In this document: in pieces, positions 59,717 through 63,969 of the stretch
Layout of the letters: each line of letters opens with the position of its first letter
How positions within the stretch are numbered: the stretch's first letter is position 1
Origin: a virus
Lineage: Duplodnaviria > Heunggongvirae > Uroviricota > Caudoviricetes
DNA length: 64,000 nucleotides
Reading direction: 5' to 3' (one strand)
IMG/VR virus record: IMGVR_UViG_3300029705_000019
Made by a program: the position numbers and the translations under genes
The notes under the pieces: model-generated
What the model saw: only the letters and a program-made list of their open reading frames with translations
Databases searched by the model: none
What the model was told of the DNA's origin: nothing

Positions 59717-60073
59717 TCATACTTCGGTCCATCCGTTTTTCTGAATTATTCTTCGCATATTTTCTACGCCGACAGGATTCATTGAATGAATATGAAATTT
59801 CGTATCAGTACCTTCTCCACCGCATAACCACTCAAACCAGTCGAGAAGTCTAATGTAGTCACCACCATCAGAAGCATAGTCACCTGCGTCATAGTCAAGG
59901 TCAATCAGTTCGATTTTTAGTGTCCAATCAGGATTCCCACTTTCAATTGACTTTGCTAGTCTAAATACGCTACGACTAATAGCGGTCTTGGCTTCTTCAA
60001 CACTCTTACACCAAACATATCCTTCAGGTGCGGGTCTTACATCATCTATCCACAGTTTCATATATATTACCAA
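59717..60073 (-). CDS. Cyclic-phosphate-processing receiver-like domain protein
   Basis: KLWIDDVRPAP...IDLDYDAG...IHSMNPVG pattern of the receiver-like family linked to RNA repair systems. Confidence 0.7.
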   Translation of the reverse strand: MVIYMKLWIDDVRPAPEGYVWCKSVEEAKTAISRSVFRLAKSIESGNPDWTLKIELIDLDYDAGDYASDGGDYIRLLDWFEWLCGGEGTDTKFHIHSMNPVGVENMRRIIQKNGWTEV

Positions 60074-61122: not shown

Positions 61123-62011
61123 ATTCAGTACCTCCTTATATATATTATATTGATGTTGTTTGATTTTTCAACTATAAAATAAAAATAGCTATTGATGAAA
61201 CGGCATCAATAGCTATTACAAAAGAAAGGAGGTCAAAACCCGCAACACAATACCGAAACGCAGGTTGATTATGGAGGAAAGGACAACTCCATAATAGATC
61301 ATACAATTGCAAATTGACCTTCATCATACATAACTTATTAAGAACATTATTAACATATACTCACTTGAATCTGAGCAATGAGGAGCGACCTCACGCTTTT
61401 CAAATGGATTTTATTAACCATGGCCGCCATGTACATTTCAGTTAAATAATAAAATCGAACAGCACCTACAATCAATATGTAGGAAATTTCACGGAGCTTC
61501 AGATTTGATAAGAATCTTTAACTAAACTTTCTGTTAAAGAAATTAATCTATTATAATCCACATGCCGCTAATTTCACCAACAATTCTTGTTATAGCCTCT
61601 CACGAGACATCAAGTGGAACACTTCCTTTGAGAACCGGGTCGTTAGTTTCTCACGCCAACAACCGCTGGTGAGATGTATTACTACAGAGCTTCTTGTCGT
61701 GCCAAGAATGTTGTTGTTTATGCAAATAATCGTTATGCAACATTAACCACAGCTGTGCTTTTCCTTATGAGCCAGTAAACCTATTTATTCAAAACTTATT
61801 CATAGGTCTCTAATACTTTGTACACCATCGCATACATTTCTTATTTCGTGGTTAAGTCTCAGCCATCACGCAAGATGTCATACACTGAGTTATTTAACAA
61901 TTATATAATCTATTATGAAGTTGTCAATGAACTTATGTTAATTTATACCTTATCTAGTTCTCAGCAACTTAGCAATGCGCTCATTGCCAAGAACTAAGCT
62001 ATGGTAATTGA

Positions 62012-62266: not shown

Positions 62267-62503
62267 TTACGTTGTTTTAATGGTGTTGTTGTAAATCTTT
62301 CTATATTCTTTAATAGTAGATTTATTACAACTTGAATAAAGATCTTCGTTGATCGTTCCGTCTTGTTCCCACTGACAATGTGGACAAATTGAATAATCAT
62401 TGAATGTTTCATTACCACAAACAGGACATTTGATTATACGGTACCCATTATCAAGTTGTTCATTGATATCATTCAAAGAGTAAACATCAGTTAATCTTTT
62501 CAT
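62267..62503 (-). CDS. Cysteine-rich CPCC-like protein
   Basis: CPVCGNET...YSICPHCQWEQDG...CN...EYRK pattern. Confidence 0.7.
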   Translation of the reverse strand: MKRLTDVYSLNDINEQLDNGYRIIKCPVCGNETFNDYSICPHCQWEQDGTINEDLYSSCNKSTIKEYRKIYNNTIKTT

Positions 62504-62564: not shown

Positions 62565-62936
62565 TTATTTTCCTTCAGGAATTTCACCCATGTATTTTAC
62601 TGCTTTATCAGTATTATACTCTCTTAATGTTTTTCTATGTACTGTTATAAGAATTGGCTCTGCATTGCGCCATCCATAAACGACAAAATCGCCTGTCTCA
62701 ACATTATATTTTGCATAACGTGTTCTTTGATCTTTTTCACTTGGTGTTGTTTCATAACCAAGTATCTTTTTATGATCAACAGGTGTTTTTGCAAGGGTAT
62801 CACCAATATGTTCATACTCATCAGGTGAAATTTTTGGAAACTGACGCTCTTTTACTACATGTTTTTTATGATGCTCTTCTCTACTAAGATCCGATGAAAA
62901 TTTTTCATCTAAATCATCAATACGTTTGAACTTCAT
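62565..62936 (-). CDS. Putative RNase toxin-like protein with a capsid-targeting-like N-terminus
   Basis: Starts MKFKRIDDLDE. HHKKHV..RQF..ISPDEYE...AKYNVETGDFVV...LITVH recalls HxxKH polymorphic-toxin RNases. Confidence 0.4.
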   Translation of the reverse strand: MKFKRIDDLDEKFSSDLSREEHHKKHVVKERQFPKISPDEYEHIGDTLAKTPVDHKKILGYETTPSEKDQRTRYAKYNVETGDFVVYGWRNAEPILITVHRKTLREYNTDKAVKYMGEIPEGK

Positions 62937-62991: not shown

Positions 62992-63144
62992 TGGTGCCCG
63001 TGGAGAGACTTGAACTCTCGACCACATGATTAAAATGGTGCCTGACGGAAGACTCGAACTTCCATTTCTCTTGGTTATTAACCTTGAATTCCTACCATTG
63101 AATGAGTCAGACGTCATGTGCTCTACCAACTGAGCTACACGAGC
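62992..63144 (-). tRNA. tRNA-Lys(TTT) split between C32 and U33 by a 77-nt insert
   Basis: The 5' part (63113-63144, 32 nt) and 3' part (62992-63035, 44 nt) join into a perfect 76-nt cloverleaf with loop CTTTTAA and CCA. Confidence 0.9.
63036..63112 (-). tRNA. Nested tRNA-like element (anticodon AAT, defective anticodon stem)
   Basis: GTCTGAC/GTCAGGC acceptor, ATTC/GAAT D-stem, GGAAG-TTCGAGT-CTTCC T-arm and ACCA end; anticodon stem CAAGG/CCAAG has two A-A mismatches. Confidence 0.85.
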
Positions 63145-63905: not shown

Positions 63906-63969
63906 TGGCTCTCCGTGTTGGGCTCGAACCAACGACACCATACTGCTCTACCGACTGAGCTAACGGAGA
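63906..63969 (-). tRNA. 64-nt tRNA-like gene lacking the anticodon arm (Asn-like body)
   Basis: TCTCCGT/ACGGAGA acceptor, GCTC-AGTCGGTA-GAGC D-arm, GTTGG-TTCGAGC-CCAAC T-arm and GCCA end; only 11 nt lie between the D- and T-stems. Confidence 0.75.

What the first reader, a model, noticed from the sequence alone, without database searches (positions are those of the whole stretch)
62992..63144. A tRNA nested inside a tRNA: tRNA-Lys(UUU) with a tRNA-shaped intron at 32/33
Seen: the minus strand holds 32 nt of tRNA-Lys (G1-C32), then a complete 77-nt tRNA-like sequence ending in ACCA, then the remaining 44 nt (U33-A76). Removing the insert gives a perfect 76-nt cloverleaf, with no duplication or scar. 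The insert has a perfect acceptor stem, T-arm and CCA (the part RNase P reads), but its anticodon stem is broken by two A-A mismatches and its anticodon AAT is rare in bacteria. Established: known bacterial tRNA introns are self-splicing group I introns of hundreds of nt, and tRNA-Lys(UUU) is the PrrC anticodon nuclease target that T4 repairs with Pnk/Rnl1. Inference: the insert could be an intron removed by tRNA-processing nucleases (RNase P at its 5' end plus a cut after CCA) and sealed by an RNA ligase. That would keep tRNA-Lys latent or nuclease-proof until spliced. It could instead be a decoy, or an accidental insertion that inactivated the gene.
Basis: partly seen in the sequence, partly recalled or inferred. 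Interest (0 to 1): 0.92.

Follow-up and report, generated by a model that had tools for sequence, protein, structure and literature searches.

The report
tRNA-shaped intron in phage tRNA-Lys
The only lysine tRNA gene of a 205-kb gut phage is split in its anticodon loop by a 77-base insert that is itself a complete tRNA shape; related phages carry similar inserts that evolve like real, removable introns, which points to a still unproven way of splicing tRNAs with ordinary tRNA-trimming enzymes plus an RNA ligase.

Summary
Window 63144-62992 (minus strand) reads 32 nt of tRNA-Lys(UUU), then a 77-nt cloverleaf ending ACCA, then 44 nt of tRNA-Lys. Removing the insert gives a canonical 76-nt tRNA. 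It is not a misassembly: six contigs from six samples are identical, and a seventh from another study is nearly so.

This 77-nt insert was found only in this lineage. Syntenic or orthologous Lys genes in relatives are uninterrupted, except in one 213-kb phage, where the same Lys gene carries a different 66-nt tRNA-like insert at 34/35.

The same genome also has tRNA-Leu(UAA) split by a 51-nt acceptor/T-arm mini-helix ending ACCA. That insert belongs to a family in Leu(UAA) and Ile(UAU) genes at two loop positions. Its stems covary strongly (135/144 stem positions paired), and one exact empty-site allele exists. The insert ends are always G1...NCCA (rarely NCAA), so the cut sites appear to be set by the insert.

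Every complete insert-bearing genome encodes an ATP-dependent RNA ligase, but so do insert-free relatives. No spliced RNA was seen.

Lak megaphage tRNA introns (Devoto 2019) are the printed precedent. This scan has noted the class before, on other DNA and in this genome.

Verdict: probable protein-spliced intron; mechanism inferred.

The parts
63113..63144 (-). 5' exon of tRNA-Lys(UUU), nt 1-32: acceptor 5' strand, D arm, anticodon-stem 5' strand and C32
   Evidence: Sequence; Rfam tRNA model positions 1-32; ARAGORN with introns; script
63036..63112 (-). 77-nt tRNA-shaped insert. It has a 7-bp acceptor stem (G1-C72, U2-G71), a D arm with GG, a degenerate anticodon arm (two A-A mismatches; it can instead form GGUU/AACC with a 3-nt loop), a canonical T arm, A73 and CCA
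   Evidence: ARAGORN tRNA-Ile(aat); Rfam tRNA 34.4 bits on the insert alone
62992..63035 (-). 3' exon of tRNA-Lys(UUU), nt 33-76: U33, anticodon UUU, the rest of the anticodon arm, variable loop, T arm, acceptor 3' strand and ACCA
   Evidence: Sequence; Rfam alignment; the joined exons are called a 76-nt tRNA-Lys(ttt)

Best explanation
The 77-nt element is an intervening sequence in a working tRNA-Lys(UUU) gene. It belongs to a class of tRNA-shaped inserts in the anticodon loops of large gut-phage tRNAs. These inserts are removed from the RNA by proteins and ribonucleoproteins, not by self-splicing.

Proposed route:
1. The precursor folds as a cloverleaf inside a cloverleaf.
2. Host RNase P recognises the insert's acceptor/T-arm stack and ACCA, and cuts before its G1. 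This leaves C32 of the 5' exon with a 3'-OH.
3. An endonuclease that measures from the same tRNA-like body cuts directly after the insert's CCA. This leaves U33 with a 5'-phosphate.
4. The two exon halves stay together through the Lys acceptor and anticodon stems. The phage's Rnl5/NgrRnl-like nick-sealing ligase joins them, and the insert is released as a free tRNA-like RNA.

Shown here: the anatomy, the recurrence, the covariation, the insert-defined boundaries, an empty-site allele, and the presence of the ligase.

Inferred: every enzymatic step, and that the Lys insert behaves like the better-sampled mini-introns.

I put the chance that the insert is spliced out by some route at about 0.65. 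I put the chance of this particular route at about 0.5.
For: 1. Anatomy is exact, and the spliced product is a canonical tRNA-Lys.

2. It is the only tRNA-Lys in the genome. AAA is 63% of Lys codons. The phage tRNA set mostly reads A-ending codons through U34 anticodons, and Lys(UUU) fits that set.

3. The same genome has tRNA-Leu(UAA) split at 34/35 by a 51-nt acceptor/T-arm helix ending ACCA.

4. That mini-insert is a family. I found 12 distinct sequences, in Leu(UAA) and Ile(UAU) genes, at 32/33 or 34/35.
- 135 of 144 stem positions are paired, against 49-64 when the partner strand is slid.
- There are 3-6 pair types per variable pair.
- G1-C72, the T-stem closing G-C pair, A73 and CCA are invariant.

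5. The exons also keep cloverleaves through compensatory changes.

6. G027 carries the same Leu gene with identical exons and exactly the 47-nt insert missing.

7. Orthologues of this Lys gene, with the same acceptor and T stems, are uninterrupted in five phages. In G024 the gene is split at 34/35 by a different 66-nt tRNA-like insert. That insert is homologous to a 67-nt insert in a tRNA-Thr(UGU).

8. In every case the insert starts at G1 of a 7-bp stem, follows a pyrimidine, and ends NCCA (twice NCAA). This holds whatever the loop position or the next exon base, so the cut sites appear to be set by the insert.

9. The Lys insert has all the class invariants.

10. Ligase evidence:
- PHROG 'RNA ligase', E 2e-67.
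- Foldseek top hits to Naegleria nick-sealing RNA ligase, E 6e-13, with an N-terminal OB fold resembling tRNA-binding domains.
- A KMHGT motif I is invariant in the family alignment.
- All seven insert-bearing genomes estimated at 92-100% complete have an ATP-dependent RNA ligase.

11. No self-cleaving or self-splicing RNA family matches the insert. None of the seven genomes has an archaeal-type splicing endonuclease.

12. An enzyme that cuts right after CCA exists in nature: T. maritima tRNase Z (PMC3161902).
Against: - No spliced tRNA-Lys was seen. The only RNA-library contig over the gene shows the unspliced layout, and it could be carried-over DNA.
- This 77-nt insert has no detectable relatives and no sequence variation. 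Selection on it cannot be measured, and a recent inactivating insertion is not excluded.
- It is not homologous to the covarying mini-intron family, so the transfer of evidence is by analogy.
- The host is unknown, and most bacterial RNase Z enzymes are inhibited by CCA.
- Six of the seven insert-bearing phages encode no RNase Z-like protein.
- Two inserts in G024 end in CAA, not CCA.
- RNA ligases are just as present in insert-free relatives, so their presence does not discriminate.
- The ligase structure model is mediocre (mean pLDDT 59.7).
- In the minimum-energy fold of the precursor, the outer anticodon stem is replaced by another hairpin (-44.7 kcal/mol against -39.8 for the nested fold).
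Confidence: 0.5

Rival explanations
1. The insert is a real intron, but it is removed by a heal-and-seal route. An unidentified phage or host endonuclease cuts both junctions and leaves 2',3'-cyclic phosphate and 5'-OH ends. The phage polynucleotide kinase and metallophosphoesterase heal the ends and the ligase seals them, as in T4 Pnk/Rnl1 repair or yeast Trl1 splicing. The tRNA shape would serve only as a recognition handle.
For: The genome encodes all three activities:
- an AAA_33/polynucleotide kinase (Pfam E 2e-24, PHROG E 4e-22);
- a calcineurin-like phosphoesterase (E 1e-13);
- an RNA ligase.

A cyclic-phosphate-processing receiver-domain protein lies 3 kb from the gene. No enzyme known to cut after CCA is encoded. 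The CAA-ending inserts argue against strict CCA reading.
Against: No candidate endonuclease was identified. Such repair kits are common in large phages without introns (PMC7824862). The strict G1/7-bp stem/N73-CCA design is just what RNase P reads, and would be unnecessary for a dedicated nuclease. No RtcB is present.
Confidence: 0.15
2. The gene is dead. A tRNA-like sequence landed in the anticodon loop of tRNA-Lys in a recent ancestor of this lineage and inactivated a dispensable gene. The exons look perfect only because too little time has passed.
For: The insert is found only in this lineage. All seven sampled copies are identical or nearly so. Syntenic and orthologous Lys genes elsewhere are uninterrupted. 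No spliced product was seen. Phage tRNA sets turn over fast among the relatives.
Against: - It is the only Lys tRNA, and it reads the phage's main Lys codon.
- A clean insertion with mature tRNA ends, restoring a 7-nt loop, is not what random insertion gives.
- The same design in the Leu gene of this genome is conserved across lineages that have diverged (their ligases are about 50-65% identical). Compensatory changes occur in both exons and insert.
- An orthologous Lys gene split by another insert is also otherwise intact, and no other Lys gene was called in the 16-kb tRNA cluster of that genome that I scanned.
Confidence: 0.2
3. The products are the pieces, not a rejoined tRNA. The locus is a processing cassette. 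It releases the 77-nt tRNA-like RNA as a decoy, regulator or enzyme cofactor, and/or stable tRNA-Lys halves or a nicked tRNA that soak up anticodon nucleases. The Lys exons act as structured leader and trailer.
For: - The insert keeps the acceptor, D, T and CCA features while its anticodon arm is degenerate. This suggests a non-decoding tRNA-like RNA.
- The phage also has a free-standing tRNA-like gene with no anticodon arm and a ROOL RNA next to the cluster, so it invests in tRNA-like and structured RNAs.
- tRNA-like elements are used as processing signals elsewhere, for example MALAT1 mascRNA (my own knowledge).
Against: It does not explain why removing the insert always restores an exact 7-nt anticodon loop of the right tRNA in more than 15 independent cases. 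It also does not explain why the exons covary as tRNAs. An excised functional RNA and a spliced tRNA are not mutually exclusive.
Confidence: 0.1
4. It is an assembly or chimera artefact.
For: The genome is a metagenome-assembled contig.
Against: The 333 nt are identical in six separately assembled contigs from six samples. A DNA-run contig spans the gene with 0 differences, and a contig from another study has 3 differences.
Confidence: 0.01

Closest known systems
'Enigmatic' tRNA introns of Lak megaphages (Devoto et al. 2019, Nat Microbiol, PMC6784885)
   Same: Phage tRNA genes are interrupted in the anticodon loop by short inserts. One of them, in tRNA-Thr(UGU), is predicted to be a tRNA itself. 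Alleles with and without the insert exist. No ribozyme was recognised.
   Different: Those are about 540-kb, alternatively coded Prevotella phages; this is a 205-kb phage read here with the standard bacterial code (table 11). The paper gives no mechanism, no family analysis and no covariation. Here the insert is a full 77-nt cloverleaf with encoded CCA at 32/33 of tRNA-Lys. It sits beside a mini-helix intron in Leu and an Rnl5-like ligase.
Group I self-splicing introns in bacterial and plastid tRNA anticodon loops, e.g. tRNA-Leu(UAA) between U34 and A35 (my own knowledge)
   Same: They interrupt the anticodon loop of bacterial-type tRNAs. The Leu(UAA) 34/35 site is the same one that many of the mini-inserts use. 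They are sporadic and mobile.
   Different: Group I introns are more than 200 nt long with a P1-P9 catalytic core. This insert is 77 nt, has a tRNA fold and matches no intron or ribozyme family. Splicing would need proteins.
Archaeal/eukaryal tRNA introns and split tRNAs (bulge-helix-bulge motif, EndA/Sen endonuclease, RtcB or Trl1 ligase)
   Same: They are short, non-self-splicing tRNA introns removed by an endonuclease and a ligase. The exon halves are held together by the tRNA body.
   Different: No EndA-family endonuclease is present in any of the seven insert-bearing phages. The sites are 32/33, 34/35 and 36/37, not mainly 37/38. The boundaries are defined by a tRNA-like insert rather than by an exon-intron helix. 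The bacterial hosts would lack that machinery.
T4 Pnk/Rnl1 repair of PrrC-cleaved tRNA-Lys, and jumbo-phage RNA repair kits (Iyer et al. 2021, PMC7824862)
   Same: A phage ATP-dependent RNA ligase, a polynucleotide kinase and a phosphoesterase act on broken tRNA anticodon loops. The target tRNA is the same, Lys(UUU).
   Different: That is repair of host-inflicted damage, not removal of a genome-encoded insert. The ligase here is Rnl5/NgrRnl-like with an N-terminal OB domain, not Rnl1.
tRNA-like processing signals cut by RNase P and RNase Z (MALAT1 mascRNA; acceptor/T-arm minihelix substrates of RNase P; my own knowledge)
   Same: A tRNA-shaped element embedded in a longer RNA directs precise cuts at its own 5' and 3' ends. 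An acceptor/T-arm minihelix with RCCA is enough for bacterial RNase P.
   Different: In those cases the flanks are not rejoined. Here the flanks are the two halves of another tRNA.

Membership tests
Canonical tRNA (Rfam RF00005): outer gene | Full-length match to the tRNA covariance model above the gathering score, and a cloverleaf with a 7-nt anticodon loop | tested here: met
   52.6 bits (gathering 29) over model positions 1-71, with the insert treated as a loop insertion. The joined exons are called a 76-nt tRNA-Lys(ttt).
Canonical tRNA (Rfam RF00005): the insert | Match above the gathering score, with an intact anticodon stem able to present an anticodon | tested here: inconclusive
   34.4 bits, above the gathering score of 29, but two of the five anticodon-stem pairs are A-A. 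It has a tRNA shape; a decoding function is doubtful.
tRNA-shaped inserts of phage tRNA genes (Lak-type 'enigmatic' introns; class defined here) | The insert lies in the anticodon loop, and its removal restores an exact 7-nt loop and a cloverleaf | tested here: met
tRNA-shaped inserts of phage tRNA genes (Lak-type 'enigmatic' introns; class defined here) | The insert begins at G1 of a 7-bp acceptor-like stem, has a T arm closed by G-C, and ends with a discriminator base plus CCA | tested here: met
   The insert has G1-C72, a 7-bp stem, a GGAAG/CTTCC T stem, and A73-CCA. The same invariants hold in 12 mini-introns.
tRNA-shaped inserts of phage tRNA genes (Lak-type 'enigmatic' introns; class defined here) | Sequence homology to a known insert family (the CCAGUG/GGCAGCA mini-family or the GUCCUGUA 66-67-nt family) | tested here: not met
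   The insert shares neither motif. It had no match in two pattern scans. Its best identity to any tRNA I fetched is 70%. It shares the design, not the lineage.
tRNA-shaped inserts of phage tRNA genes (Lak-type 'enigmatic' introns; class defined here) | The insert is removed from the RNA and the exons are joined | not testable with these tools
   Only contigs of public runs were available, and no joint 3485->3563 (L041 coordinates) was among those listed. Raw tRNA-seq data are needed.
Group I intron | A catalytic core of more than about 200 nt that Rfam Intron_gpI recognises | tested here: not met
   The insert is 77 nt. The only Rfam match up to E 10 is tRNA.
Archaeal/eukaryal BHB tRNA intron | A splicing endonuclease of the EndA/Sen family is available | tested here: not met
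   PF01974 is absent from all seven insert-bearing phage genomes, while the archaeal control genomes gave matches. The hosts are presumably bacterial and were not examined.
Archaeal/eukaryal BHB tRNA intron | A bulge-helix-bulge motif at the two junctions | not tested
   In the nested fold the junctions lie in a multiloop. I did no formal BHB search.
ATP-dependent RNA ligase, Rnl5/NgrRnl-like (493-aa protein, genome 67348-68829, outside the window) | A nucleotidyltransferase domain with lysine motif I, plus an N-terminal OB domain | tested here: met
   PHROG RNA ligase E 2e-67. Pfam RNA_ligase and the PHA02142 OB fold both match, though below their cut-offs. KMHGT is invariant in 25 homologues. 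Foldseek gives NgrRnl 6vt4 at E 6e-13 and T4 Rnl2 at E 3e-4. The structure model is only moderate.

The most novel reading that the evidence does not exclude
Large gut phages use a third kind of tRNA splicing, neither self-splicing nor BHB-endonuclease based. Mobile introns mimic the top half of a tRNA, or a whole tRNA. The cell's own tRNA end-processing enzymes (RNase P at the 5' end, an endonuclease cutting after CCA at the 3' end) therefore excise them with ligatable ends, and a phage Rnl-type ligase rejoins the anticodon loop. The excised tRNA-like RNA may have a job of its own. The mature-end boundaries may mean that such introns arise when the ligase mis-joins a tRNA-like RNA into a nuclease-cut anticodon loop.
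Probability: 0.45. Interest if true: 0.9.

Novelty: new variant of a known kind. Interest (0 to 1): 0.72.

Why it matters
If these inserts are spliced as proposed, bacteria and their viruses would have a protein- and RNase P-dependent tRNA splicing pathway. That pathway has been thought limited to archaea and eukaryotes. It would use RNase P in a new role and give phage RNA ligases a routine job beyond damage repair.

It would also explain the 'enigmatic' Lak phage introns. It would improve tRNA annotation in phage genomes, since standard bacterial settings here report a spurious tRNA-Ile(AAU) and miss tRNA-Lys and tRNA-Leu.

This genome is a good test case. It holds a full-size insert and a mini-helix insert side by side with one ligase. 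Related phages supply natural empty-site alleles.

Tried and rejected
- BLAST of the region and of an 802-aa protein against deposited phage genomes gave no match.
- The adjacent 123-aa ORF has no relatives in viral contigs. Its homologues elsewhere sit next to uninterrupted tRNAs: Lys(CUU) directly upstream in one lineage, Lys(UUU) followed by Leu(UAG) in another.
- Junction patterns for a CCA-ending insert in tRNA-Lys gave nothing or only chance hits in coding DNA: one search found none, 36 hits in viral contigs and 25 in metagenome contigs.
- Patterns from the insert itself found nothing in viral contigs or genome contigs.
So there is no host clue.
- Public-run contigs listed no joint that removes the insert (only the best-supported joints are shown). 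The joints near the gene are tRNAs of other organisms. Contigs cannot show absence.
- The RNA-library contig with the unspliced layout cannot be told apart from DNA carry-over.
- Sequence and profile searches of the ligase against the PDB found nothing.
- Ligase presence does not separate insert-bearing from insert-free phages.
- No RtcB or T4 Rnl1 family protein is in this genome. RNase Z-like and EndA families are absent.
- Stop codons reported beside the ligase match in G009 were a false alarm. The frame is open across the gap between the two matched pieces, which is a variable protein segment.
- No convincing promoter was found directly upstream of the gene.
- Two odd long tRNA calls in G002/G007, and the 'introns' of 420, 947 and 219 nt called by ARAGORN, were not of this class or were not followed up.

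Full report
**What is there**

On the minus strand, window 63144-63113 is the first 32 nt of a tRNA-Lys(UUU): acceptor strand, D arm, anticodon-stem strand and C32. Window 63112-63036 is a 77-nt sequence that folds as a tRNA and ends in ACCA. Window 63035-62992 is the remaining 44 nt of the tRNA-Lys, from U33 to A76.

- The Rfam tRNA model matches the whole 150 nt at 52.6 bits, with an 83-nt insertion in the anticodon loop.
- The joined exons are called a 76-nt tRNA-Lys with every stem paired.
- The insert alone scores 34.4 bits (gathering score 29). Exactly two A-A mismatches lie in its anticodon stem. That arm can also form GGUU/AACC around a 3-nt loop, so decoding is doubtful.
- The nested double cloverleaf is close to the minimum-energy fold (-39.8 against -44.7 kcal/mol).

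**It is not an artefact**

The window lies in a 205,166-bp, 34.5% G+C virus contig estimated at 92% complete. Six contigs assembled separately from six samples carry the gene and its flanks, 100% identical over 333 nt. A DNA-run contig spans it with no difference. A 221-nt contig from a 2022 RNA library of another study covers exon 1, the whole insert and 25 nt of exon 2, with three differences and no gap. That contig shows the unspliced layout and may be precursor RNA or DNA carry-over. None of the joints listed removes the insert, which contigs could not be expected to show.

**Context in the genome**

The gene sits in a tRNA cluster of 13 ARAGORN calls. Most are U34 anticodons that read A-ending codons. 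It is the only tRNA-Lys, and AAA is 63% of Lys codons.

Two kilobases beyond the window end (genome 99744-99881), a tRNA-Leu(UAA) is interrupted between U34 and A35. The interruption is a 51-nt element made only of a 7-bp acceptor-like stem, a short linker, a T-like arm and ACCA.

About 35 kb away the phage encodes several RNA-end enzymes.
- A 493-aa RNA ligase:
  - PHROG E 2e-67;
  - Pfam RNA_ligase and the PHA02142 OB fold, both below their cut-offs;
  - an invariant KMHGT motif;
  - Foldseek best hits to Naegleria nick-sealing RNA ligase at E 6e-13, then T4 Rnl2;
  - an N-terminal OB fold resembling tRNA-binding domains.
- A polynucleotide kinase, a calcineurin-like phosphoesterase, a Pol-beta-type nucleotidyltransferase and a Thg1-like enzyme.

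There is no RtcB, T4 Rnl1, RNase Z-like or EndA-type protein.

**Relatives: the Lys insert itself**

Relatives found through the topoisomerase gene and through the ORF next to the Lys gene have uninterrupted Lys tRNAs at or near the syntenic place. Junction-pattern scans of IMG/VR and JGI metagenome contigs found nothing or only chance hits. Patterns from the insert found nothing. No tRNA I fetched is more than 70% identical to it. So this 77-nt insert is specific to one lineage and shows no variation. Selection on it cannot be measured directly.

A scan for the 3' exon found true orthologues with identical acceptor and T stems. Five phages carry the gene uninterrupted. One complete 212,924-bp phage (G024) carries it split between U34 and U35 by a different 66-nt tRNA-like insert. 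That insert is homologous to a 67-nt insert in a tRNA-Thr(UGU) of another relative. Compared with the uninterrupted orthologue, the exons here differ by a compensated D-stem pair and by a wholly different but still complementary anticodon stem.

**Relatives: the class**

The Leu mini-insert is a family. I collected 12 distinct sequences from phage contigs. They sit in tRNA-Leu(UAA) at 34/35, in tRNA-Leu(UAA) at 32/33 (the same site as the Lys insert), and in tRNA-Ile(UAU) at 34/35.

- A CCAGUG motif, a GGCAGCA loop, G1-C72, the closing G-C pair of the T stem, A73 and CCA are conserved.
- The other ten stem pairs vary with 2-6 standard pair types each.
- 135 of 144 stem positions are paired, against 49-64 when the 3' partner is slid by one or two positions.
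- The host exons also keep cloverleaves through compensatory changes.
- G027 carries the Leu gene of G009/G010 with identical exons and exactly the 47 nt from G1 to CCA missing, with no scar.
- G024 has further inserts: in a tRNA that reads as Ile(UAU) on my parse (36/37, ending ACCA) and in one that ARAGORN calls Pro(UGG) (ending ACAA).

Across all cases the insert starts at G1 of a 7-bp stem, follows a pyrimidine, and ends three bases after its discriminator. This holds whatever the loop position or the next exon base. The boundaries therefore belong to the insert, not to the exon.

**How it most likely works**

Conserved, covarying inserts in otherwise intact and sometimes unique tRNA genes must be removed. 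They are too small for self-splicing and match no ribozyme family. No BHB endonuclease is present.

The insert keeps what bacterial RNase P reads: the acceptor/T-arm stack, G+1 and RCCA. So the simplest route has three steps.
1. RNase P cuts at the 5' junction.
2. A structure-measuring endonuclease cuts after CCA.
3. The phage ligase directly seals the resulting 3'-OH/5'-phosphate nick.

An enzyme that cuts after CCA is known: T. maritima tRNase Z (PMC3161902).

Every insert-bearing genome estimated at 92-100% complete (7 of 7) has an ATP-dependent RNA ligase, of three different families. Insert-free relatives have ligases too, so this fits the model but does not discriminate.

All enzymatic steps are inferred. 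A heal-and-seal route using the kinase and phosphoesterase is a live alternative. For the Lys insert specifically, a recent inactivating insertion cannot be excluded.

**Comparison with what is known**

The printed precedent is Devoto et al. 2019. They reported Lak megaphage tRNA introns, one of which 'may encode a tRNA', with alleles lacking it. They called them enigmatic and gave no mechanism. Reviews of jumbo phages that I searched do not describe the class. Searches for nested-tRNA terms found nothing relevant.

This scan has noted such inserts before on other DNA (e1-3416708, e1-1614965, e1-3634531, e1-5369805) and in this genome (e1-1865310). I re-derived the genome-specific claims independently.

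The element shares its site with group I introns of tRNA-Leu(UAA). It shares enzyme logic with archaeal/eukaryal tRNA splicing and with T4 tRNA-Lys repair. It fails the defining tests of each of these.

**Verdict**

The intron reading is probable, about 0.65 by any route and about 0.5 for the RNase P, post-CCA cut and ligase route. The nuclease-proofing idea is untested.

This is a new variant of a barely described, mechanistically open class. It differs in being full-size and CCA-ended, at 32/33, in tRNA-Lys, in a non-Lak phage. It is worth an experiment.

Noticed in passing
genome 99744-99881 (L002:9245-9382), 2 kb beyond the window end: tRNA-Leu(UAA) is split at 34/35 by a 51-nt acceptor/T-arm mini-helix ending ACCA. 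It belongs to a covarying family found in at least 12 sequence variants in Leu(UAA) and Ile(UAU) genes of related phages, at 32/33 or 34/35. An exact empty-site allele exists in G027 (L272).
   Followed up: yes
window 63909-63969 (-): A free-standing tRNA-like gene with acceptor stem, D arm, T arm and GCCA end, but no anticodon arm. Rfam tRNA scores it at 42.8 bits; ARAGORN misses it. G024 has similar short tRNA-like hits of 59-64 nt.
   Followed up: partly
window 61297-61913 (-): A full-length ROOL RNA (Rfam RF03087, 144.6 bits) lies directly downstream of the tRNA cluster. A perfect TTGACA-16-TATAAT promoter sits just upstream (L002:13471-13498).
   Followed up: partly
genome 97109-97175 (L002:6610-6676), outside the window: A tRNA-like body (Rfam model positions 4-67, 47.6 bits, anticodon-loop GUU with A33). 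Its acceptor stem is replaced by a longer interrupted hairpin formed with the flanks (CTACGC...GCGTAG). G001 has two similar partial hits.
   Followed up: no
genome 99361-99440 (L002:8862-8941), outside the window: A weak tRNA hit (30 bits) with good acceptor and T arms, an unclear anticodon region and no CCA.
   Followed up: no
L151:8245-8387, L151:14682-14817 and L151:1633-1770 (G024); L143:1828-1964: Further tRNA-shaped inserts occur in relatives:
- Lys(UUU) at 34/35, 66 nt, ending ACAA;
- a tRNA that ARAGORN calls SeC(tca), Ile(UAU) on my parse, at 36/37, 57 nt on that parse (ARAGORN's call is 59 nt), ending ACCA;
- a tRNA that ARAGORN calls Pro(UGG), about 62 nt, ending ACAA;
- Thr(UGU) at 34/35, 67 nt, ending UCCA.

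ARAGORN misnames two of them (Thr and SeC) because the boundary is ambiguous by one or two bases.
   Followed up: partly
L051:4271-4389 and L052:10744-10862 (G002, G007): A 117-119-nt tRNA, probably Asn(GUU), with an insert of about 44 nt between the D arm and the anticodon arm rather than in the anticodon loop. This is a different kind of interruption.
   Followed up: no
L050:5601-6098 and L055:2834-3331 (G001 lineage): A stretch of about 500 nt that ARAGORN calls tRNA-Leu(caa) with a 420-nt intron. It holds three repeats of a GATGCAG..CAGTTACTTC motif with tRNA-fragment-like pieces. It may be a repeat array at a tRNA gene.
   Followed up: no
window 59717-60073 (-), 62267-62503 (-) and 62565-62936 (-): A cyclic-phosphate-processing receiver-domain protein (PF20274, E 1e-16) lies 3 kb from the tRNA-Lys gene. 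A CPCC cysteine-rich protein and a conserved 123-aa ORF of no known family lie directly downstream. The 123-aa ORF keeps its place next to tRNA genes in relatives.
   Followed up: partly
genome 83182-84018 (L040:1183-2019), outside the window: A Thg1-like 3'-5' nucleotidyltransferase (Pfam E 3e-30, PHROG E 4e-91) lies near the tRNA cluster. Its role, if any, in maturing the interrupted tRNAs is unknown.
   Followed up: no
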